Shown piece by piece: positions 2,794-20,786 of a DNA stretch of 34,141 bases. Under the pieces are notes generated by a model, which worked only from the letters and a program-made list of their open reading frames with translations, did not search any database and was not told the DNA's origin. How positions within the stretch are numbered: position 1 is the stretch's first letter; every line of letters starts with the position of its first letter. Position numbers and translations under genes: made by a program. The stretch is from a virus: UHGV virus genome UHGV-0461192. One strand, 5' to 3'.

Positions 2794-5006
2794 GCTGTTT
2801 GCTCCTGTGCAGCGGTAAGGGCGGCGAGGCGTTCAGTTTTAATGTCGGTGATACGGCGCAGACGTGATCCCAGATACGATGAATATTCTTTATCGCCTTT
2901 GGTTTCCGCTGCTTTCCTGTGTACATCCACTTCGCGGGCGATGAGGCCAAATACCTTGTTTACTTCGTTGGCGGTTACCGCGGCGGCCAGCGTATTGGCA
3001 ACGTTGATAAGCTTCTCATCCAGTTCCTTACGCAGACGGGTAGCATCTTCCGCATTCTCGCTGGCATTCTTGATATCAAACTCAGCTTTATTCCTCTGGC
3101 GGTATTCCGGATTGTCGTACAGGCCCATGAAAATATCGGCGCTGAATCCGAGAGGGGATAGCGCTTTCTTAACAGCATCCGTCCAGGATTTCTTCGGTGC
3201 TTCGCCGTCGCTTGTTGGTCCGTATTTAGTGTCGTAGATATAAGGTGTGCATCCGTAAGCCTCGGACTCACCGCGTACCCCATTCAATATGTACCAGACT
3301 CTCACTTTCATGGTGTGGTGCATTTCACATAGGTACCCGCCAACACCGTCTTGAATCAGATCCCATTCTATTTTTTCACCAACCTGTTTTTTGCGAACTA
3401 TTGGTGCGCCTTTATCAAAGCGCTCCTCCAGCACCTCTACCCCCCAGCCAATACCAAATGGCCCAAATTCGCGAGTCGCTTTCATCGCTATATAAGTGCC
3501 GTTGATGGATGTGCCGCCGCCATTCTGAGAGAAAGCACTGGTGAAGCGCTCATCGGTTTTGAATACGTTCTTCCACAATGCCAGGTTATCCGTGTCATCT
3601 GAGTCCTTTAACTCCGTTTCGATAGCTGAGATTGCATTCTGCCGCTTGTGCTCTTCGGCATGGATCCGCTCAACCAGCGCGTCAACGTTCTGCACCAGAT
3701 CCTTTACCTGCTCGCTAAGTTGTTCTTGTGGAGGAGTCTCTTCTGCCAGGGTAATAGCTGCAGGTTCCCTCTGTGATACGGCGTTATTTTCAGGTACGTC
3801 ATACACATGGCGAGGCGTGACAAACTGCTCACGCAACTGCTGCAAACTACGTTCTCCAGCATTTGCAGCTTCGCTTTTTTCGCCCTGATTTGAGGGTGTT
3901 TCTGACATCATCCCATCAATTGAGAATCGTCCGCCGCCGTGGTTGGTGACTTTTACATCATCCTTGGGTGCTGCTTCCTTTGGCTTCTCTTCAACAGCAT
4001 TTGCATCACGCTGCCCGTTAGCTTGCAGCCAGTTGTCGATGTGACTGCGCAGGGATTGTGGGAAGTGGTACGTGTCTTTTGCGGGGGCGCTCTGAATAAC
4101 ACCGAATACTGATGCGCGGTCATAGGCAAGGATCTGATCCGTTGTGCGCAAGGCCATTGACCAGCGTTTAAAATCTTCCCTGTCCTGACTGATTATTTCG
4201 TCTGCCGCTTTCAGGATGCTGGGGGTGATTTTTTCCGGGGCAACAGGTAACAGGGCGCAGGCAATTTCACGATCCAGAGTGGCGTGAGTCTGTTTGTAAG
4301 GACGTGCGGATGCTGTTTCTGGTTTTACCTCCGGCAGCATTTCATCTCGTTTACCGGGATTCTCTACCCATTTTTTTATAAATTTGGAGATAGTCCAACT
4401 GGTCGGGTTTTGTTCCTGGGTATCGCAACTTGCCAAAATTGCATGTACCAGATTATTCAATCCAGCAATATGCATGTACTCGATGGGCTTACACGCCACC
4501 ATGGCATCAAGAACGATGCGGTTAAACGCGTCAACCTCATCCTCACTGTCAGTATCACTGTTATCGAGCATCTCCAGGTATTCACGCGTCTGCACAAGCA
4601 ATTCACTGTCGACTTCGTTGGCGTCGTGGCTGAACAGCAGAACGGCGGCGAATCGTTCACGAGCCGGCAGTTTCATCAGGTCGCTAACCTGTGAGATATC
4701 TGCTGAACTGCAATCTGAATCAACAGGAGTGTTAACTACCCATTTTTCGCCATCAAAACTGTGTTCTGTGGCAAACGTCTCATCAAACTCACCGACGCCT
4801 GGGCGCGGTTGGCCCGGGGCATCTTCCCAGATTTTAGGTTTGAAATAGTTGTCGCCGTGGTCAGGGTAGGCTTCCCACAATTTGCCGATGATGATGTTCT
4901 CGGCAACTTTTTTGTTAGGGGCGGCGATGGCGATGGCCAGCGCCGGGATCGCGCCGTTTTTGAGCGCGCCTTTTTTCGCTTCTAACAAGCCGTTAAAAAT
5001 GGTCAT
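2790..5006 (-). CDS. large recombination-associated protein with Rad52/Erf-type single-strand annealing signature in its C-terminal third
   Basis: 738-aa ORF; region FGPFGIGWGVEV...YGCTPYIYDTKYG...KKSWTDAVKKALSPLGFSADIFMGLYD resembles the conserved Rad52/Erf motif (K..TDA.K+AL..FG...); N-terminal ~500 aa of unknown function with long acidic stretches. Confidence 0.5.
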   Translation of the reverse strand: MTIFNGLLEAKKGALKNGAIPALAIAIAAPNKKVAENIIIGKLWEAYPDHGDNYFKPKIWEDAPGQPRPGVGEFDETFATEHSFDGEKWVVNTPVDSDCSSADISQVSDLMKLPARERFAAVLLFSHDANEVDSELLVQTREYLEMLDNSDTDSEDEVDAFNRIVLDAMVACKPIEYMHIAGLNNLVHAILASCDTQEQNPTSWTISKFIKKWVENPGKRDEMLPEVKPETASARPYKQTHATLDREIACALLPVAPEKITPSILKAADEIISQDREDFKRWSMALRTTDQILAYDRASVFGVIQSAPAKDTYHFPQSLRSHIDNWLQANGQRDANAVEEKPKEAAPKDDVKVTNHGGGRFSIDGMMSETPSNQGEKSEAANAGERSLQQLREQFVTPRHVYDVPENNAVSQREPAAITLAEETPPQEQLSEQVKDLVQNVDALVERIHAEEHKRQNAISAIETELKDSDDTDNLALWKNVFKTDERFTSAFSQNGGGTSINGTYIAMKATREFGPFGIGWGVEVLEERFDKGAPIVRKKQVGEKIEWDLIQDGVGGYLCEMHHTMKVRVWYILNGVRGESEAYGCTPYIYDTKYGPTSDGEAPKKSWTDAVKKALSPLGFSADIFMGLYDNPEYRQRNKAEFDIKNASENAEDATRLRKELDEKLINVANTLAAAVTANEVNKVFGLIAREVDVHRKAAETKGDKEYSSYLGSRLRRITDIKTERLAALTAAQEQTA

Positions 5007-5036
5007 TGGTCTTTCCTCATTACAGGTCAGTGGTTT

Positions 5037-5357
5037 TTAGTAGGGGAGCTCATCGGTATCTGGCGTGTATTCGATGCAAAGTAACTGCTGGATTTTGTCA
5101 TCGATAGCAGCAATACGCTGTTGGGCGTCGGCGACTGTTTTCTGTTTTTGTTCACGCAGTTGCTCGACCTGTAAACCGATGATGTCGATTGGCTCGGGCT
5201 GGTTAACGGTAATTTCAATTTCGCGGCTTTCCAGAAGGATGTACCTGTCTGGAAAATTTTTTGACATATCAACAGTCGCAACAAGCAGCTTTTCGTGGCT
5301 GAAAGTTGAAGTTGCATAATGAATAAAGAGTGTTACTGGGATGGTGCGCGCTTCCAT
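5037..5357 (-). CDS. hypothetical early protein
   Basis: 106-aa ORF with AGGAG RBS upstream of ATG; first gene of the leftward early operon after the long leader. Confidence 0.5.
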   Translation of the reverse strand: MEARTIPVTLFIHYATSTFSHEKLLVATVDMSKNFPDRYILLESREIEITVNQPEPIDIIGLQVEQLREQKQKTVADAQQRIAAIDDKIQQLLCIEYTPDTDELPY

Positions 5358-6367: not shown

Positions 6368-6796
6368 CTATTTTGTCTGGTTTTTGGCTTCAAGTAGTTC
6401 TTTTAGCAGTAGATCGAAGTGCTCTCTTTTTTCTTTTAGCTCATTGATTAATTTATTTTTTTCGCTCTCAGGCAGTCCTCTGAATAGTTGCAGTAGAGCC
6501 TGTTCTTGCGGGGTTAGTTCTTGATTGTAATTACCCGGGTGTAGTGTGGATTCATCCAAATATTCCCCTTCATTCATGAAGAAAAAATGAACAGGGTATC
6601 CGGTCACTTTTGCTAGCTTGTCTAATTTATCTTTTCTTGGAGTTACCCCATTACACCATGCCTGAACTGATTGAGCCGTAACCCCAATATGGCGAGCTAA
6701 CTCAGATTGAGACCAGCCTAAGTCTTTTAGAATCCGTTGTAGTCGGCTAGCAAAAGCCATGTTTTTCGTTTTTGTGTTCATACCGTAAGGATACAA
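6368..6796 (-). CDS. prophage repressor, XRE-family HTH, no S24 peptidase domain
   Basis: 142-aa ORF with HTH segment LGWSQSELARHIGVTAQSVQAWCNG; divergent from a Cro-like gene; C-terminus lacks Ser-Lys autocleavage motifs. Confidence 0.8.
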   Translation of the reverse strand: MYPYGMNTKTKNMAFASRLQRILKDLGWSQSELARHIGVTAQSVQAWCNGVTPRKDKLDKLAKVTGYPVHFFFMNEGEYLDESTLHPGNYNQELTPQEQALLQLFRGLPESEKNKLINELKEKREHFDLLLKELLEAKNQTK

Positions 6797-6879: not shown

Positions 6880-7110
6880 ATGGATAAACAACTGCAAGAC
6901 AAAATTCTTTCCGTAATGAGTCAATCCGAGTTAGGGCGGCGATTAGGGAAAAAACCACAAACGGTAAGCCTCTGGTTCAAAGGACGGGTTCCCGGTGAAG
7001 AGGTTTTGCGCACATCTGAAGCTCTTGAATGGCGCGTGACCCCTCATGATCTTAGACCGGATCTTTACCCAAACCCAGATGACAGCTTGCCTAAAACGGA
7101 AGCAGCTTAA
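6880..7110 (+). CDS. Cro-like regulator (YdaS-like HTH protein)
   Basis: start chosen at MDKQLQDKIL after the AAGGAG RBS; SQSELGRRLGKKPQTVSLWFKGRVPGEEVL...RPDLYP resembles Rac-prophage YdaS. Confidence 0.7.
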   Translation: MDKQLQDKILSVMSQSELGRRLGKKPQTVSLWFKGRVPGEEVLRTSEALEWRVTPHDLRPDLYPNPDDSLPKTEAA

Positions 7111-7168: not shown

Positions 7169-7645
7169 ATGGAAAACCAAGAGGAATTACAAAAAGAGAT
7201 TTTGACCTGGGCGGCAAGGGCAGGGCAGGAACTCGTCACGATTGAAATCTGCCGGGCCTGGTTCAGTCAGGGACGCAATGATGAGTTGAGACTACATGAA
7301 TTTGAGGACGCGGACGGCAACGTGGACTGGAGAGCCATCAACAACAATCGGCAGAAAATCTTTCGCTGGTTACGTGGCGAGACAACGGCGGCGCGCCGAA
7401 AAACTCAGGTGCTGGCCAGTGTGATGAAAGCCGTGCTACCCGCAGAACGGCGGGCACGTCTGGAGTCGCCGGGCGATCCCGTTTTGCTGGCAACGCTGGC
7501 GGCAAAAGAAGGGGTGGAAGCGATTAACGCTGTACATCTCCACTTCGCGCCAGAGTTAACTATTCAGGAAATTGACGAAGCAATAGCGGCGCTGGTAGCG
7601 ACGCGAGGAGCAGTGATACGCACTGCGCAAGACCACCATGCATGA
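7169..7645 (+). CDS. YdaT-like protein (CII-like regulator family)
   Basis: 158-aa ORF; AINNNRQKIFRWLRGETTAARRKTQVLASVMKAVLPAERRARL resembles the remembered Rac YdaT motif (W..QQNIYHRWLKGETKTQREKIQ...LPRELRHRL). Confidence 0.65.
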   Translation: MENQEELQKEILTWAARAGQELVTIEICRAWFSQGRNDELRLHEFEDADGNVDWRAINNNRQKIFRWLRGETTAARRKTQVLASVMKAVLPAERRARLESPGDPVLLATLAAKEGVEAINAVHLHFAPELTIQEIDEAIAALVATRGAVIRTAQDHHA

Positions 7646-11469: not shown

Positions 11470-11691
11470 ATGTTTGGCGATAAACTGGAGTTACCACGGA
11501 ACGGGCGGATAGTGCTCTATATTTCAGATTACAAAGTAACCCGGGCTGAGGTGTTGGAACCGGAAAAACATCTGGTCACGTTACCGGACATTATTGAGTT
11601 GTATAAGCGGGTCGGATATGTGGACTTGCATCGCGATGATGTTCCCGTTGAGTGTATGGAATGTGAACACCGGAGGTTTGAAGTTGATTGA
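11470..11691 (+). CDS. hypothetical small protein
   Basis: 73-aa ORF with GGAGGGAAAGG RBS-like sequence upstream. Confidence 0.45.
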   Translation: MFGDKLELPRNGRIVLYISDYKVTRAEVLEPEKHLVTLPDIIELYKRVGYVDLHRDDVPVECMECEHRRFEVD

Positions 11692-11933
11692 ATTGACTTA
11701 GAAAAAGTCCGGGGCTATAGTTTCCGCGCAGCCGCAAAATCGGTTGCCGGGATTGGCGTCCCGGATATCTAAGTGACGCATAGCCGCGTTAGCGGTTTTT
11801 TTATGTGTTAGGCACGGCCACATTCGCATTATGGTGGGCTGTGTGGGGGCTTCTGTGGAAGCGCCGGGTTCACTTAGCCGGTTACGCCAACCCTGCACAG
11901 CTCACCACCAGATGATTGGCGTCGCTGGTGGTG

Positions 11934-12752
11934 ATGAAAAAAACACTAAGTGAGGCCACTGCGATGACAGTCCAAATATCTGCGGAATCCCTTTCTCCGC
12001 TACATCATAACCAACTTCCCGTCATCACTACTGAATTGCTTGCCAGTTTGTATGGCACGGAAGTAAATGGTATCCAGCAAAACTTCAAGCGCAACATCGC
12101 CAGATTTGTCGTAGGAAAGCATTTTTTTAAGCTGGAAGGTAATGAATTACGCGACTTCAAAAACAGACTGACAGATAGTCAGTCAGTTGCTAAACATACC
12201 CGATCCCTCATTCTCTGGACAGAACGCGGCGCAGCTCGCCATGCCAAAATGCTGGAAACAGAACAGGCCTGGGAAGTTTTCGAAAAGCTGGAAGATTGTT
12301 ATTTTAGCCAGCGTCCAGAGAGGCGGAGTACAACTACCGATGACCGTACTCCCTTGCGTGATGCCGTTAATATACTGGTCGGCAAGAAAGGCATGATGTA
12401 TCCCGATGCCTACACCATGATTCATCAACGCTTCGCCGTCTCTCACATAGAACAACTGTCACAGACGCAAATGTTAGAGGCGATTGAATACATCCACTGC
12501 CTGCTACTCGATGAAAATCACCCAACCATTCCAGATTTTTCTTTTATCACCACTATCAAAAATGGAAAAGTGACCGGGATGCGCCATGTTGCCAAAGGCG
12601 AACATCTGATGACCTTTGACGCTTTCAAAGAGATCGCTGAGCGGGCAGGGTATCTGGTGATCCACAGCGACAATCTGCGAAGTATGACACTGGATAAATT
12701 GATGGTAATGGGGAAAAAGTCGGCTATATCCGTTGCTAATTCAGCATTTTGA
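11934..12752 (+). CDS. ORF6N-domain protein, putative antirepressor
   Basis: N-terminal LPVITTELLASLYGTEVNGIQQNFKRNIARFVVGKHFFKLEGNEL resembles the ORF6N antirepressor-type domain; ORF opens with TTG at 11916, ATG at 11934 or 11964 more likely. Confidence 0.55.
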   Translation: MKKTLSEATAMTVQISAESLSPLHHNQLPVITTELLASLYGTEVNGIQQNFKRNIARFVVGKHFFKLEGNELRDFKNRLTDSQSVAKHTRSLILWTERGAARHAKMLETEQAWEVFEKLEDCYFSQRPERRSTTTDDRTPLRDAVNILVGKKGMMYPDAYTMIHQRFAVSHIEQLSQTQMLEAIEYIHCLLLDENHPTIPDFSFITTIKNGKVTGMRHVAKGEHLMTFDAFKEIAERAGYLVIHSDNLRSMTLDKLMVMGKKSAISVANSAF

Positions 12753-16199: not shown

Positions 16200-16805
16200 T
16201 TACTTGCGTTTAAAAAGGTATTTTGTCACGACCAGCACGAGGCCGAATACCTCTGTCAAAGTACCGCCCATGTACAACTGTAGTGTTAAATCCTCAAATT
16301 CCAGCTTACCTGCGCCGTCGGCAATAAATACACCATTCATTATCAGAAGTTGGAAAGCAAGGATAATCAGGAACCATTTCCCGTATCGTTTTTTTAGAGC
16401 GATTTCTGCTTCAAAATCTTTGTTGTTGAGTTGTTTGCGCTCATGCTCGGTATCAAGTGAATTCACCTGTTTCACAGATGTGAACTCGGTCAAGATTTTA
16501 CTCTCAGTACGGGTGACTTGTTGAGAGGGTGTAGCAGTTGGAATTCTTTTGCTAGACGCAGCTACAGCCATTTTGCGAGCTTCGGCAGCTCTTTTTCTGG
16601 CTATTCCGCGAATACGGACAGCCGTTTTTTTGGGGGCGTGCGAAACCTTTGGCTGAGGTGAAGCTTCGTCAGGAGACTGAACCGGAGTTTCATCGTCCTC
16701 CGGCTCAACCTCTTCTGCTAACTGACGGTGTAGGTTGAGGGAATCCTTCAGTCTGCGTGCTACTTCCTGTTTGAAACGGCTGTTAAAATCGTCATCCGAT
16801 GGCAT
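16200..16805 (-). CDS. hypothetical protein with charged N-terminal region and C-terminal transmembrane helices
   Basis: 201-aa ORF directly downstream of (4 aa gap) the ImmA-like gene; C-terminal hydrophobic segments (WFLIILAFQLLIMNGVFIA, VFGLVLVVTKYLF). Confidence 0.55.
   Translation of the reverse strand: MPSDDDFNSRFKQEVARRLKDSLNLHRQLAEEVEPEDDETPVQSPDEASPQPKVSHAPKKTAVRIRGIARKRAAEARKMAVAASSKRIPTATPSQQVTRTESKILTEFTSVKQVNSLDTEHERKQLNNKDFEAEIALKKRYGKWFLIILAFQLLIMNGVFIADGAGKLEFEDLTLQLYMGGTLTEVFGLVLVVTKYLFKRK
16204..16271. repeat. direct repeat copy B (3' end of the 16200-16805 gene)
   Basis: matches 12781-12848 with 5 mismatches in 68 bp. Confidence 0.75.
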
Positions 16806-16814
16806 TTTAAAGCG

Positions 16815-17303
16815 TTACCCCAACCTCAAGTTCTTTAAACGATAAGTCATCGCATCGTCAGATACGCCAAAATAATGCGCCATTATATAACTTGGTTGAC
16901 CGTCAGCGTGCAGTTTTCTGACCTCATCTACCGGCATCAGAAGTTCTGCTGCGAACTTGTTTGCAAAAATTTCATCAGGATGCGTTCCGGCGCTTGCGGT
17001 TTCGCCACGTAAATCAACGTACTCATATTCATCGCTATGCGATGCTTGCCGGGCGATGTAATGCCCCAACTCATGCCCACATGAAAAACGTTGACGAACT
17101 TTGTTGTCATCACTGTTTAGAAAGATCGCTGGATCTTGATCTTTTTGTTTAATCAGTGCGCCAGAAACTTTCCCAGGAAGATCGGTAATAAAAACATCTA
17201 ATCCCATGTCGTGAGCAATTTTCGCTGGATCAACAGGGAAACCACGCCCGCACCAGAACGTGTCCAGCACTCGCCGGGCGTGCTCTCTTGGGTTGGTAGC
17301 CAT
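16815..17303 (-). CDS. ImmA/IrrE-family zinc metallopeptidase
   Basis: 162-aa ORF with HEXXH motif (GHELGHY) in a context typical of ImmA/IrrE (DUF955) peptidases; GGAGG RBS upstream. Confidence 0.7.
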   Translation of the reverse strand: MATNPREHARRVLDTFWCGRGFPVDPAKIAHDMGLDVFITDLPGKVSGALIKQKDQDPAIFLNSDDNKVRQRFSCGHELGHYIARQASHSDEYEYVDLRGETASAGTHPDEIFANKFAAELLMPVDEVRKLHADGQPSYIMAHYFGVSDDAMTYRLKNLRLG

Positions 17304-18179: not shown

Positions 18180-18820
18180 TGAAAACCTTCTATGAGGACT
18201 GGCCTGAAACTTTCGTTAGCCGGTTAGATATGTTACGGGCGTTGGATGATCGCGGTTCGACCCGGAGGCTCTATCTTGAACGGACCGGGGCAATATTTGA
18301 CGCTCTGGCAGAAGAGATACGTACAGTCGTTGCCGGGCATCCTGAAATCGACGTGAGTGAACTTGATATCGGGCCGCTGTATCGCTATTACAAACGTGGA
18401 GAAAAGGGGAATCCGCTGGCTGACTTACTTATTGAGTTGGCTCCACCAACTTGTGAACGGGTTCGTATATCTCCTGAAGTGTACATAATCCCGTATCTGT
18501 TTTTTGCACTGTTGATAGCGCAAGGCGCTGACAACGATGCCCGCGATTTTTTCAATATGATGATGCGACCGTTAATCATCGCCTACCGTTTCAAACAACT
18601 GGCGCGATACCTGGGAACAAAGGGCGGAGGACGACCACAGCACAGATTAAAAAGCGAAGCCATTGAACTGGCTGATCGTTTTTTTACTGAAAACCCGACA
18701 GCGCCATTATCGCGTGGCGTGCAATACATATCCGGTATTTTTGTGGCGAAATACTCTGACCCACCTGCAGCGTCGACGATTAGAAAATGGTTAATTCCAA
18801 TTTACAGGAGTGATAAATAA
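18180..18820 (+). CDS. hypothetical protein
   Basis: 213 aa from ATG 18180 (GAGG RBS); ORF opens at 18143; no recognisable motif. Confidence 0.5.
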
Positions 18821-18933
18821 TGACCATAAACGGTTTAATCCCCTATAAAACCGTTTAATAAAATTCACGACGTGAATATAATTGTTCATTATTCCCTCAT
18901 TGTATTTGGCGTTATGACAAATGCCATAAAATA

Positions 18934-18949
18934 CTGTATAAATATACAG
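18934..18949. promoter_or_regulatory. LexA box (SOS operator)
   Basis: CTGTATAAATATACAG matches the CTGT-N8-ACAG consensus with AT-rich core; 22 nt upstream of a small ORF. Confidence 0.7.
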
Positions 18950-18971
18950 GTTGTGGCATTGGGGGGAAGAC

Positions 18972-19151
18972 ATGAATATTCAAGAATCTATAGGCGAACT
19001 ACCGGAAACATGCCGGGCTGTTATCAAGCGTAAGGACGGACACATCGTTGGTGTGCGTGTTCTGACCGATGATGAGCGGATTGCCAGCCTGATGGCGTTT
19101 CTCGAGTTGGCAGAAATAGCTGGATATACTATTACACCCCCTGACGCGTAA
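18972..19151 (+). CDS. small LexA-regulated protein, candidate antirepressor
   Basis: 59-aa ORF (MNIQESIGELPETCRAVIKRKDGHIVGV...) immediately downstream of the LexA box; function inferred from context. Confidence 0.45.
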   Translation: MNIQESIGELPETCRAVIKRKDGHIVGVRVLTDDERIASLMAFLELAEIAGYTITPPDA

Positions 19152-19228
19152 AACACGGTATAATATCGGTGCTGGATTGAACACCCGGCACCATTTTCTG
19201 AACACTGCCGCGCCACCTGGAGTTAACC

Positions 19229-19825
19229 ATGGCGCAGCATTCATTTATCAGGGTATCCGGCGGTTCGCTAATACCCGCGACACCAGACACGCAACGCTGG
19301 TTGACTGAACGAGTCAAACCAGGTGCTGTTGTGTATGCAGATTTCAAACAGGCGCGTAATCCCGCGTTTCATCGTAAATTTTTCTCACTTCTCAACCTGG
19401 GCTTTGATTACTGGCATCCGTCCGGAGGGGCTATTTCTCCTGCGGAGCGCGAACTGGTTCACGGCTACGTTAAGTTACTGGCGTATTACGGTGGACACGG
19501 TGATGTCATGGCAGAGCTGGCTGATCAGTATCTTCTCGATGAGTCGGAAAAGCGCGCGGGGAGTATCAGTGCGGTGAAGTCGTTCGAGGCGTTTCGCGCA
19601 TGGGCGATTATGGAAGCTGGGTTTTATGACGTTCATCAGATGCCAGACGGCAGTTTGATGCGCGTACCTCGTTCAATCTCGTTTGCAGCGATGGACGATC
19701 TTGAGTTCGGTCAACTGTATTCAGCCGTTTTAGATGTGCTGTGGAATTATATTTTGTTCCGCACATTTGCCTCTCAGGAGGCCGCTGAAAATGCCGCCGC
19801 GCAGCTGCTGGATTACACATCATGA
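19229..19825 (+). CDS. conserved lambdoid nin-region protein (possibly YbcN/DUF1367-like)
   Basis: 198-aa ORF, 4-nt overlap with the following YbcO-like gene; family name uncertain. Confidence 0.5.
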   Translation: MAQHSFIRVSGGSLIPATPDTQRWLTERVKPGAVVYADFKQARNPAFHRKFFSLLNLGFDYWHPSGGAISPAERELVHGYVKLLAYYGGHGDVMAELADQYLLDESEKRAGSISAVKSFEAFRAWAIMEAGFYDVHQMPDGSLMRVPRSISFAAMDDLEFGQLYSAVLDVLWNYILFRTFASQEAAENAAAQLLDYTS

Positions 19826-20115
19826 AAAAAATCGACCTGAGAAAAGCTGCACGCAGTCGCGCTTGTACTGTGCGTATCCCCGGTGTGTGCAATCACAATC
19901 CTGAAACCAGCGTACTGGCTCATTATCGTCTCGCCGGAACGTGCGGCACAGCCATCAAACCTCACGATATGCAGGGCGCTATCGCCTGCAGTGCGTGTCA
20001 CGATGCCATCGACGGACGTACAAAAACGGATTACGAGCACGACTCATTGTTGTTGATGCACGCTGAGGGAGTTTTCAGAACACTGGCTATCTGGCGCGAT
20101 GAGGAGTTTATCTGA
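19822..20115 (+). CDS. YbcO-like putative nuclease (DUF1364, Cys-rich)
   Basis: 97-aa ORF with KAARSRACTVRIPGVCNHNPETSVLAHYRL...IACSACHDAIDGRT, closely resembling the remembered DLP12 YbcO. Confidence 0.7.
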   Translation: MKKIDLRKAARSRACTVRIPGVCNHNPETSVLAHYRLAGTCGTAIKPHDMQGAIACSACHDAIDGRTKTDYEHDSLLLMHAEGVFRTLAIWRDEEFI

Positions 20116-20786
20116 TGAGTAACGAGTATTTATTGGAATATACCCGCATAAAACTGCGCGCTGCATTGCGGGATTTGTCTGGTGGTTCTAAGGGGCAACT
20201 GGAAGCATTGTGTGAGCACCCACCGGCAGACAAAAACGCATACCCACGCAAACATATTCACCGTGTGCAGCTGGAGGACCGGACCGTTGATGCTCTGGTT
20301 ACGCCAGTTTACGCTCTGGAAAGTTTCAGCAGACGTCGCCCCGCGCCGCCGATGAGTGATTTTGAATTTGCTGATTCATCCTGGCGGCGTTCTGTGAACT
20401 CGCTGGATGCAAGTCAGCAAGCGTGGTTGCGTTATTGCTACGGTGGTAACCTGGCATTCAAACACCAAACAGCTATTTGTGAGGCTGTCTGGAGTCGCTA
20501 TAAAGGAAACATCCCCGCGTCAACTCAGAGAAAAGTAGTTAAGCGCCTGCTTTCGTTGGTGTGGTTGTCCGTGCAGGCGGTCGCAGCAGCAAATAAACGC
20601 GAGGATTTTAAGGAGATGGCCGGATCTACCCTAGCAGGAATGCTGTCGGTTTCTCGTTCCACCTGGTGCGAAACATACTCCCTGCACTGGGTAGGAATGA
20701 AAGAGGCGGTGAGAGCACTTGATGAAGTGGCACTTCTTGCAACTTTGCATCATTATCAGAACCATTTAGACGACGTTTGCGTATAA
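20115..20786 (+). CDS. putative late-gene antiterminator (Q-like)
   Basis: 223-aa ORF directly upstream of a promoter/terminator region and the lysis cassette; call mainly positional. Confidence 0.5.
   Translation: MSNEYLLEYTRIKLRAALRDLSGGSKGQLEALCEHPPADKNAYPRKHIHRVQLEDRTVDALVTPVYALESFSRRRPAPPMSDFEFADSSWRRSVNSLDASQQAWLRYCYGGNLAFKHQTAICEAVWSRYKGNIPASTQRKVVKRLLSLVWLSVQAVAAANKREDFKEMAGSTLAGMLSVSRSTWCETYSLHWVGMKEAVRALDEVALLATLHHYQNHLDDVCV

What the first reader, a model, noticed from the sequence alone, without database searches (positions are those of the whole stretch)
18934..19151. Consensus LexA box directly upstream of a 59-aa ORF
CTGTATAAATATACAG is a near-perfect SOS box, 22 nt upstream of the ATG of a small ORF, separate from the immunity region. 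This is the strongest candidate for the SOS-sensing input of the prophage (small antirepressor).
Basis: partly seen in the sequence, partly recalled or inferred. Interest (0 to 1): 0.5.

Follow-up and report, generated by a model that had tools for sequence, protein, structure and literature searches.

The report
SOS-controlled small prophage antirepressor gene
A near-consensus LexA binding site sits on the promoter of a 59-residue gene that belongs to the same family as the proven small antirepressors GfoA (Salmonella Gifsy-1) and Rem (E. coli Qin). It is therefore very probably the switch by which DNA damage wakes this E. coli prophage: a known mechanism in a gene that databases still call hypothetical.

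Summary
CTGTATAAATATACAG lies at 18934-18949, 22 nt before the ATG (18972) of a 59-codon ORF ending at 19151. It is the only LexA-type site in the window: 25.2 bits against 9.3 for the next best.

- The ORF matches PHROG 340, as do E. coli Rem (the tested antirepressor of DicA) and a Gifsy-1 GfoA-type protein recovered through the published gfoA primer. BLASTP of the ORF against the GfoA-type protein gives E 6e-10.
- The ORF occupies the same slot as Gifsy gfoA/gftA, between a LexA box and the DUF1367 gene upstream of Q.
- The prophage repressor (6368-6760, minus strand, 130 aa, no peptidase domain) is a full-length homologue of GtgR, GfoR and DicA, the class inactivated by antirepressors.
- In 77 of 80 distant homologues from viral contigs a strong LexA box precedes the gene. 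The background rate is 0.17% of windows.

Likely mechanism: LexA cleavage lets the promoter fire, the small protein binds the repressor, and lytic genes are derepressed.

This is a new member of a known kind. Side findings are two further paralogues in the window, one fused to an ORF6N Ant protein, and a conserved stem-loop after the gene.

The parts
18932..18951 (+). LexA operator (SOS box), 20-mer TACTGTATAAATATACAGGT; core CTGT-N8-ACAG at 18934-18949
   Evidence: 25.2 bits, the only site in the window. Conserved in 75-76%-identical relatives as CTGTATATATATACAG or CTGTATAAATACACAG. The CTGT/ACAG positions are the most conserved columns in 43 distinct promoter regions of distant homologues.
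18914..18942 (+). Candidate sigma-70 promoter ATGACA-17 nt-TATAAA. The -10 hexamer lies inside the LexA box. An alternative reading is TTTGGC (18905-18910), 16 nt, TAAAAT (18927-18932), which places the box over the start site.
   Evidence: Read from the sequence. ATGACA is invariant in the five aligned relatives. The tool's scan did not list it, because it requires T at position 6 of the -10 hexamer. This part is inference.
18972..19151 (+). 59-aa ORF: small antirepressor of the GfoA/GfhA/Rem family (PHROG 340). Annotated as 'hypothetical protein' WP_001025459.1 in RefSeq.
   Evidence: PHROG 340, E 1.6e-20. BLASTP against the GfoA-type protein, E 6e-10. Profile against Rem, 76% probability. 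AlphaFold2 model: beta-hairpin 15-31 plus helix 40-49, mean pLDDT 79.6. The ORF stays intact in 55 distinct distant homologues.
19168..19192 (+). Conserved stem-loop GGTGCTGG-ATTGAACAC-CCGGCACC followed by ATTTTCT, lying between the antirepressor gene and the DUF1367 gene. It could be a partial terminator or a recognition hairpin.
   Evidence: RNAalifold on 15 diverse loci, including Gifsy-2 and the GfoA type: 5 pairs, 3 of them with compensatory changes, and a near-invariant loop. Single-sequence fold. No Rfam match.
6368..6760 (-). Prophage repressor, 130 aa, HTH_3 domain only, no S24 peptidase domain. This is the presumed target of the antirepressor.
   Evidence: Pfam HTH_3. Full-length homologue of Gifsy-2 GtgR (33% identity, E 6e-23), DicA (31%, E 1e-15) and a GfoR-type protein (29%, E 1.4e-10). 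Best NCBIfam match is 'transcriptional repressor DicA'.
19229..19825 (+). DUF1367 gene, the conserved downstream neighbour of the antirepressor slot. It is followed by YbcO/DUF1364 (19822-20115) and Q (20115-20786).
   Evidence: Pfam. 56% identical to Gifsy-2 STM1020. Present about 70 nt downstream of the small ORF in 75 of 80 distant loci.

Best explanation
The 59-aa ORF at 18972-19151 is a LexA-repressed small antirepressor of the GfoA/GfhA/Rem family, and it is the SOS input of this prophage.

Proposed steps:
1. In the lysogen, host LexA sits on the box, which overlaps the core promoter, so the gene is silent.
2. After DNA damage, RecA-stimulated self-cleavage of LexA frees the promoter.
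3. The small protein (beta-hairpin plus helix) accumulates.
4. It binds the 130-aa DicA/GtgR/GfoR-type repressor, which has no self-cleavage domain, and takes it off its operators.
5. Early lytic transcription starts.

Shown here: the box, its strength, its conservation, family membership, synteny and the class of the repressor. Inferred by homology: LexA binding, binding of this repressor, and necessity for induction.
For: Family membership:
- PHROG 340 is matched by the window ORF (E 1.6e-20), by Rem of E. coli K-12 (E 4.4e-21) and by a GfoA-type protein (E 7.6e-21).
- The GfoA-type protein was recovered with the published gfoA forward primer.
- It aligns directly with the window ORF: 33% identity over 51 aa, E 6e-10. 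It matches the family profile with 96.3% probability.

Experimental basis in the literature:
- Rem derepresses the DicA-controlled dicBp promoter 165-fold (PMC10448788).
- GfoA and GftA are LexA-controlled, bind their repressors and suffice for induction (PMC3121763).

Genomic context:
- Gifsy-2 has the order LexA box, dinI, gftA, DUF1367.
- The GfoA-type loci have the order LexA box, dinI homologue, ORF, DUF1367.
- The window has the order LexA box, ORF, DUF1367 (56% identical to the Gifsy-2 gene).
- The repressor is a homologue of GtgR, DicA and GfoR and has no peptidase domain.

Conservation of the box:
- It is kept in 75-76%-identical relatives although the 5' half of the ORF has diverged.
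- 77 of 80 homologues at 31-44% identity have a box of at least 14 bits, for most 35-75 nt before the aligned start (three lie 98-189 nt away). Only 0.17% of background windows do.
- The box positions are the best-conserved columns of 43 distinct promoter regions.

Which gene is the trigger:
- A related prophage has the identical repressor (WP_000853106.1) but no ImmA protease, no ORF6N Ant protein and no other family member. It keeps the LexA-box ORF.
Against: - No experimental data exist for this prophage.
- The window holds two more proteins with the same domain (11470-11691 and the C-terminus of 11964-12752) and an ImmA/IrrE metalloprotease (16815-17303). Any of these might act on the repressor.
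- The N-terminal half of the ORF differs between prophages that carry an identical repressor, so sequence does not track repressor specificity in an obvious way.
- Family members can act on repressors of other prophages. FsoA of Fels-1 does so (PMC3121763).
- Homology to GftA itself is not supported (probability 1.8-10.8%).
- The 80 distant loci share one conserved module and are not independent observations.
- The GfoA-type protein matches the published reverse primer at only 20 of 22 bases. It may therefore be a close variant of strain ATCC14028's GfoA rather than that protein itself.
Confidence: 0.82

Rival explanations
1. The LexA-controlled promoter mainly drives the downstream genes DUF1367, YbcO and Q. 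SOS would then switch on late genes directly through Q, or a recombination function. The small ORF would be a leader or accessory peptide.
For: The ORF lies 77 nt upstream of DUF1367-YbcO-Q on the same strand. The pairing of small ORF and DUF1367 is conserved in 75 of 80 loci. The hairpin between them has only a weak T-run and could let transcription through.
Against: Homologues of the small protein alone are sufficient for derepression: Rem and GfoA, and the positional counterpart GftA, in PMC10448788 and PMC3121763. The ORF is kept intact and under LexA in very diverged forms. A conserved stem-loop followed by TTTCT separates it from DUF1367.
Confidence: 0.07
2. The 59-aa protein is an SOS-induced antirepressor that acts in trans on repressors of other prophages in the same cell. 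The resident repressor is inactivated by another factor, such as the ORF6N Ant-like protein, the 73-aa paralogue or the ImmA/IrrE protease.
For: There are three paralogous domains in one prophage and an ImmA/IrrE protease. Trans-acting antirepressors are documented in this family (FsoA acting on GtgR, PMC3121763). The N-terminal divergence does not follow the repressor allele.
Against: Only this paralogue has a LexA box. A relative with the identical repressor lacks the Ant protein, the 73-aa ORF and ImmA, yet keeps this gene and its box. The ImmA cassette lies in a variable island that is replaced by other genes in relatives.
Confidence: 0.08
3. The box is a chance or relic sequence, and the ORF is a small protein of unrelated function.
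For: The minimal pattern CTGT-N8-ACAG occurs by chance in 31 of 100 shuffles. Pfam and NCBIfam have no model for the protein.
Against: The 20-mer scores as high as the best bona fide sites, and no shuffle reaches it. The box is conserved across 43 distinct promoter regions while the flanks drift. Family membership is clear.
Confidence: 0.02

Closest known systems
[quoted passage not shown]
   Same: Same protein family: PHROG 340, BLASTP E 6e-10, 33% identity over the beta-hairpin-helix core that ends in GY-x-[VI]-TPP. Same slot directly upstream of the DUF1367 gene of the nin/Q region. Under a LexA box. The repressor is of the same short, non-cleaved HTH class.
   Different: The window protein is the bare core (59 aa) without the roughly 25-aa N-terminal extension of GfoA (82 aa). 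It starts with ATG rather than TTG. No dinI homologue lies between the LexA box and the antirepressor, so the box directly precedes the gene. The host is E. coli, in a prophage with lambda-like head genes and P2-like tail genes, integrated next to a Gly-Cys-Leu tRNA gene cluster downstream of pgsA.
Rem of the E. coli K-12 Qin cryptic prophage, antirepressor of DicA (PMC10448788)
   Same: Same family: PHROG 340, E 4.4e-21, aligned over the whole core. It lies upstream of the Q-type antiterminator region. The target repressor DicA is a homologue of the window's repressor (31% identity over the full length).
   Different: Rem is 83 aa with an extra N-terminal hairpin region. No CTGT-N8-ACAG lies within about 230 nt upstream of rem, where hokD-relBE are found. 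The paper states that its inducing signal is unknown. The window gene has a near-consensus LexA box.
GftA of Gifsy-2
   Same: Same position (LexA box ... antirepressor, then DUF1367), same size class, and the same type of target repressor. GtgR is the closest characterised homologue of the window's repressor, at 33% identity.
   Different: It belongs to a different PHROG (4847). No significant similarity to the window ORF was found (BLASTP none; hhalign probability 1.8-10.8%). The only links are weak bridging hits: a 74-aa family member and the GfoA-type protein touch PHROG 4847 at E 0.005 and 0.04.
Tum of coliphage 186 and AntC of N15 (LexA-controlled antirepressors)
   Same: Same logic: a LexA box on the promoter of an antirepressor that inactivates a non-cleaved repressor.
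   Different: They are not homologous. Tum matches PHROG 189/1993 and gives hhalign probability 0.15%. The right-hand part of N15 scanned here (24000-46375, which includes the repressor region) encodes no family member.
Large Ant-type antirepressors (P22 Ant, BRO-N, KilA-N, ORF6N and pRha proteins)
   Same: The same roughly 45-aa domain forms the C-terminus of proteins with Phage_pRha, Bro-N, P22_AR_N, KilA-N or ORF6N N-terminal domains. One of them lies in this window, at 11964-12752.
   Different: The window ORF is the stand-alone domain. Whether the fused forms use this domain to bind repressors has not been tested.

Membership tests
GfoA/GfhA/Rem small antirepressor family (PHROG 340) | Sequence homology to experimentally characterised members | tested here: met
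   PHROG 340, E 1.6e-20. Rem, 4.4e-21. GfoA-type protein, 7.6e-21. Direct BLASTP against the GfoA-type protein, E 6e-10. hhalign of the family profile against the GfoA-type protein, 96.3%, and against Rem, 76%.
GfoA/GfhA/Rem small antirepressor family (PHROG 340) | Small stand-alone protein (about 55-100 aa) encoded outside the immunity region, next to the DUF1367 gene of the nin/Q region | tested here: met
   59 aa, 12 kb from the repressor gene, 77 nt upstream of DUF1367. The same arrangement is found in Gifsy-2, in the GfoA-type loci and in 75 of 80 distant loci.
GfoA/GfhA/Rem small antirepressor family (PHROG 340) | Transcription under direct LexA control (true for GfoA, GfhA and GftA; not for Rem in K-12) | tested here: met
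   At the sequence level only. The box scores 25.2 bits and overlaps the candidate promoter. It is conserved in relatives. LexA binding itself cannot be tested with these tools.
GfoA/GfhA/Rem small antirepressor family (PHROG 340) | The cognate repressor is a short HTH protein of the GfoR/GtgR/DicA class that is not cleaved on induction | tested here: met
   130 aa, HTH_3 only, no S24 domain. Full-length homologue of GtgR, DicA and a GfoR-type protein. Absence of cleavage is inferred from the domain content.
GfoA/GfhA/Rem small antirepressor family (PHROG 340) | Physical binding to the repressor, release of the repressor from DNA, and sufficiency for induction | not testable with these tools
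   This needs pull-down, EMSA and ectopic expression, as done in PMC3121763 and PMC10448788.
GftA family (PHROG 4847) | Sequence homology to GftA of Gifsy-2 | tested here: not met
   BLASTP finds no alignment. hhalign probability is 2.7%, 10.8% and 1.8%. hmmsearch gives E 1.6. Other family members give only weak bridging hits.
Tum (phage 186) antirepressor | Homology to Tum / DinI-fusion architecture | tested here: not met
   hhalign probability 0.15%. Tum falls in PHROG 189/1993. The window ORF has no DinI-like part.
LexA regulon operator (gammaproteobacterial SOS box) | CTGT-N8-ACAG palindrome with an AT-rich centre, overlapping a promoter | tested here: met
   TACTGTATAAATATACAGGT matches 17 of 20 consensus positions. 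The candidate -10 hexamer lies inside the box.

The most novel reading that the evidence does not exclude
The roughly 45-residue beta-hairpin-plus-helix unit of this ORF may be a general, portable repressor-binding module.
- It exists as stand-alone SOS-controlled antirepressors: GfoA, Rem, this ORF, and at least 118 clusters at 50% identity.
- It exists as tandem duplicates.
- It exists as the C-terminal effector of at least five otherwise unrelated 'Ant' architectures: pRha, Bro-N, P22_AR_N, KilA-N and ORF6N.

This prophage carries three copies under different controls: one LexA-controlled, plus two with no LexA box (an unannotated 73-aa ORF and an ORF6N fusion). Together they could form a built-in network for cross-talk with co-resident prophages that carry DicA/GtgR-type repressors.
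Probability: 0.35. Interest if true: 0.55.

Novelty: new member of a known kind. Interest (0 to 1): 0.3.

Why it matters
- Spread: matching DNA is found in 457 of 5426 complete E. coli genomes, and 402 carry at least 80% of the 7-kb query, among them SaT040 and other isolates from humans. The gene that probably couples the prophage to DNA damage is annotated 'hypothetical protein'.
- Use: naming it gives a direct handle for making non-inducible lysogens. In Salmonella, deleting the Gifsy-2 antirepressor removed the prophage-dependent sensitisation to ciprofloxacin (PMC13320796).
- Annotation: PHROG 340 ('unknown function') contains GfoA and Rem, and neither Pfam nor NCBIfam has a model for the family. 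This is an annotation gap that can be closed.
- Rem: LexA control is the rule in this family, so Rem of K-12, whose inducing signal is unknown, may have lost its SOS box.

Tried and rejected
- Direct BLASTP and profile comparison with GftA of Gifsy-2 found no supported homology.
- Tum of phage 186 and the right-hand part of phage N15 (24000-46375) are not related to the family.
- A sequence search of the PDB found nothing. A Foldseek search of the AlphaFold model against the PDB found nothing below E 1.5. The fold is too small for a reliable search.
- Pfam and NCBIfam have no family for the ORF, Rem or the GfoA-type protein.
- Rfam gave only noise over 18700-19400.
- I tested whether the divergent N-terminal half of the ORF co-varies with the repressor allele. 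It does not: a 76%-identical ORF goes with an identical repressor.
- I tested whether the palindrome ATTCAC-N3-GTGAAT upstream recurs in the immunity-region operators. It does not.
- The search for related loci with the broad alignment failed for lack of a conserved stretch. The genome-contig scan with the narrow alignment returned only one locus.
- The exact reverse gfoA primer was not found in any fetched locus. The GfoA-type sequence matches 20 of its 22 bases.
- I considered predicting the repressor-antirepressor complex as a fusion protein.

Full report
**Observation**

The region was read directly.
- CTGTATAAATATACAG occupies 18934-18949.
- The next ATG is at 18972, so 22 nt lie in between. 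It is preceded by GGGGGGAAG (18961-18969).
- It opens a 59-codon frame whose stop codon ends at 19151.

How strong is the site?
- The minimal pattern CTGT-N8-ACAG occurs once in the window, but 31 of 100 shuffles also hold one.
- The 20-mer TACTGTATAAATATACAGGT is 17/20 identical to the E. coli consensus. No shuffle out of 100 reaches this.
- I built a weight matrix from 14 LexA sites that I recalled from memory, so it is approximate. It scores the site at 25.2 bits, as high as the best training site. Nothing else in the 34 kb scores above 9.3.

**Context**

- The window is a prophage inserted next to a Gly-Cys-Leu tRNA gene cluster downstream of uvrC-pgsA.
- Matching DNA occurs in 457 of 5426 complete E. 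coli genomes; 402 carry at least 80% of the 7-kb query and 413 matches are at least 99% identical. The carriers include SaT040 and other isolates from humans.
- Part of it has been deposited as phage vB_EcoM-705R4.
- Gene order:
  - integrase;
  - early left genes;
  - a 130-aa HTH repressor (6368-6760, minus strand);
  - YdaS-like Cro (6880-7110) and YdaT/CII-like protein (7169-7645);
  - replication genes;
  - a variable accessory region;
  - LexA box and 59-aa ORF;
  - DUF1367 (19229-19825), YbcO/DUF1364 (19822-20115) and Q (20115-20786);
  - lysis genes;
  - lambda-like head genes and P2-like tail genes.

**What the ORF is**

Pfam, NCBIfam and the PDB give nothing for the ORF. PHROGs places it in family 340, labelled 'unknown function' (E 1.6e-20). 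Two experimentally characterised proteins fall into the same family.

1. Rem of the E. coli K-12 Qin prophage (E 4.4e-21). The profile alignment covers the whole core (alignment A3). Rem raises expression of the DicA-repressed dicBp promoter 165-fold and was named an antirepressor (PMC10448788).
2. GfoA of Gifsy-1.
   - The paper that defined it (PMC3121763) gives the cloning primers.
   - The annealing part of the forward primer found 59 viral contigs. The recurrent ORF there has 82 codons and a TTG start, as the paper describes.
   - It reads LSNSALQ...GYRVTPPSDNMKSTA.
   - It lies between a dinI homologue and a DUF1367 gene, with a LexA box upstream of dinI.
   - It matches PHROG 340 (E 7.6e-21) and the family profile (96.3% probability).
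   - It aligns directly with the window ORF: 33% identity over 51 residues, E 6e-10.
   - Caveat: the reverse primer matches at only 20 of 22 bases. The protein may be a close variant of the ATCC14028 protein.

GftA of Gifsy-2 belongs to another PHROG (4847). No supported similarity to the window ORF was found. Only faint bridging hits exist, in line with the paper's remark that GfoA and GftA are distantly related.

Tum of phage 186 is unrelated, and the right-hand part of N15 that I scanned holds no family member.

**Position**

- In Gifsy-2 the order is terminator, LexA box, dinI, gftA, STM1020 (DUF1367)..., Q.
- The window has LexA box, ORF, then a DUF1367 gene 56% identical to STM1020.
- An exhaustive profile search found 118 cluster representatives. 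Most are stand-alone proteins of 55-100 aa.
- In 80 viral-contig loci with homologues only 31-44% identical to the window ORF, a DUF1367 gene of 56-69% identity (at least 62% in all but two) follows about 70 nt downstream in 75 of them.

The slot is therefore conserved while its occupant evolves fast. That is what one expects of a protein that must match diverse repressors.

**The LexA box is conserved**

- In relatives whose ORF is 75-76% identical, the box is kept (CTGTATATATATACAG or CTGTATAAATACACAG). The ATGACA hexamer 17 nt upstream of TATAAA is also kept, although the first half of the ORF has diverged strongly.
- In the 80 distant loci, 77 have a site of at least 14 bits, for most 35-75 nt before the aligned start (three lie 98-189 nt away). 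Only 0.17% of 1176 background windows do. One of the three exceptions has no upstream DNA in the contig.
- In 43 distinct promoter regions aligned on the box, the CTGT and ACAG columns are the most conserved positions, and the flanks drift.
- The loci descend from one module and are not independent. The pattern nevertheless shows selection on the box.

**The target**

- The 130-aa repressor has only an HTH_3 domain.
- It aligns over its full length with GtgR (33% identity, E 6e-23), DicA (31%, E 1e-15) and a GfoR-type protein found through the published gfoR primer (29%, E 1.4e-10).
- Its best NCBIfam match is 'transcriptional repressor DicA'.
- PMC3121763 shows that Gifsy repressors are not cleaved on induction but are bound by their antirepressors.

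**Which gene is the trigger?**

The window holds two more copies of the domain:
- an unannotated 73-aa ORF at 11470-11691 (PHROG 340, E 3.5e-21);
- the C-terminus of an ORF6N protein at 11964-12752.

It also holds an ImmA/IrrE metalloprotease (16815-17303). None of these has a LexA box. A related prophage in strain HCP5S3_I2 has the identical repressor protein (WP_000853106.1). It lacks the protease, the ORF6N protein and any other family member, and it retains the LexA-box ORF. This points to the 59-aa gene as the core input.

**Mechanism proposed**

1. LexA bound at 18932-18951 blocks the promoter. The candidate promoter is ATGACA-17-TATAAA at 18914-18942, with the -10 inside the box. An alternative is TTTGGC-16-TAAAAT, with the box over the start site. 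Both are inferred.
2. SOS-induced LexA cleavage releases transcription.
3. The 59-aa protein is made. Its AlphaFold2 model shows a beta-hairpin at 15-31 and a helix at 40-49, with mean pLDDT 79.6.
4. It binds the repressor and removes it from the operators between 6761 and 6879.
5. A conserved stem-loop at 19168-19192 follows the gene. Three of its pairs show compensatory changes, its loop is nearly invariant, and TTTCT follows it. It may end or modulate the transcript before DUF1367. No Rfam family matches it.

**Comparison and novelty**

This is a new member of a known kind: LexA-controlled small antirepressors of the GfoA/Rem family. It differs in three respects.
- It has the minimal size, consisting of the core domain only.
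- It has an ATG start.
- It has no dinI gene between the box and the antirepressor.

The useful by-products are these.
- PHROG 340 can be named.
- LexA control is the rule in the family. Rem in K-12 has no box within about 230 nt, where hokD-relBE lie upstream.
- The domain is also the C-terminal module of pRha, Bro-N, P22_AR_N, KilA-N and ORF6N proteins, and occurs as tandem duplicates.

**Verdict**

- Confidence is about 0.8 for the full mechanism and higher for LexA control alone.
- Interest is modest, because the mechanism has been known since 2011.

Noticed in passing
window 11470-11691 (+): An unannotated 73-aa ORF (MFGDKLELPRNGRIVLYISDYKVTRAEVLEPEKHLVTLPDIIELYKRVGYVDLHRDDVPVECMECEHRRFEVD). 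It is a second stand-alone member of the GfoA/Rem family (PHROG 340, E 3.5e-21), with a Cys/His-rich tail. It has no LexA box. RefSeq annotates nothing here.
   Followed up: partly
window 11964-12752 (+): An ORF6N 'Ant-like' protein of 262 aa. Its residues about 197-238 form the same small domain as the LexA-box ORF (BLASTP E 4e-7). In the wider family the domain is fused to pRha, Bro-N, P22_AR_N, KilA-N or ORF6N N-termini, or is duplicated in tandem (P0016, P0031).
   Followed up: partly
window 19168-19192 (+); also L003 (Gifsy-2) about 11716-11737 and L098 about 3034-3054: A stem-loop between the antirepressor gene and the DUF1367 gene. The stem covaries (CG/UA/AU at 3 of 5 pairs) and the loop is almost invariant (yTGAACAmC) across very diverged phages. 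A weak T-run follows it. It could be a partial terminator or a protein-recognition hairpin (nut-like). No Rfam family matches.
   Followed up: partly
window 18855-18882 (+): A second promoter-like site, TTAATA-16-TATAAT (10 of 12 matches), about 50 nt upstream of the LexA box. A perfect palindrome ATTCACGACGTGAAT (18863-18877) lies in its spacer. The arms are invariant and the centre varies in relatives. It is not found in the immunity-region operators. The binding factor, if any, is unknown.
   Followed up: partly
window 18972-19080 compared with L004/L007/L010/L011 6001-6110: The 5' half of the ORF (codons 1-37) is strongly diverged between related prophages, while the 3' half and the flanks are nearly identical. 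The repressor protein is identical (WP_000853106.1). This looks like a mosaic recombination joint inside the gene, or fast evolution of the N-terminal part.
   Followed up: partly
window 16200-17303 (-): An ImmA/IrrE (Peptidase_M78) metalloprotease of 162 aa with a 201-aa partner of unknown function, and no adjacent HTH gene. It sits in a variable island that in relatives is replaced by a GmrSD_N/DUF262 protein and other genes. It is probably an accessory or defence cassette rather than the induction switch.
   Followed up: partly
loci L014-L093 and L097-L155: Many family members start with TTG or GTG rather than ATG (the TTG start of GfoA is an example). Gene callers may therefore miss or misplace them.
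   Followed up: no
L012 (E. coli K-12 Qin) 4652-5130: rem has no CTGT-N8-ACAG within about 230 nt upstream. hokD and relBE lie there instead. This suggests that Qin lost the SOS control that is typical of the family, which may explain why the inducing signal of Rem is unknown.
   Followed up: partly
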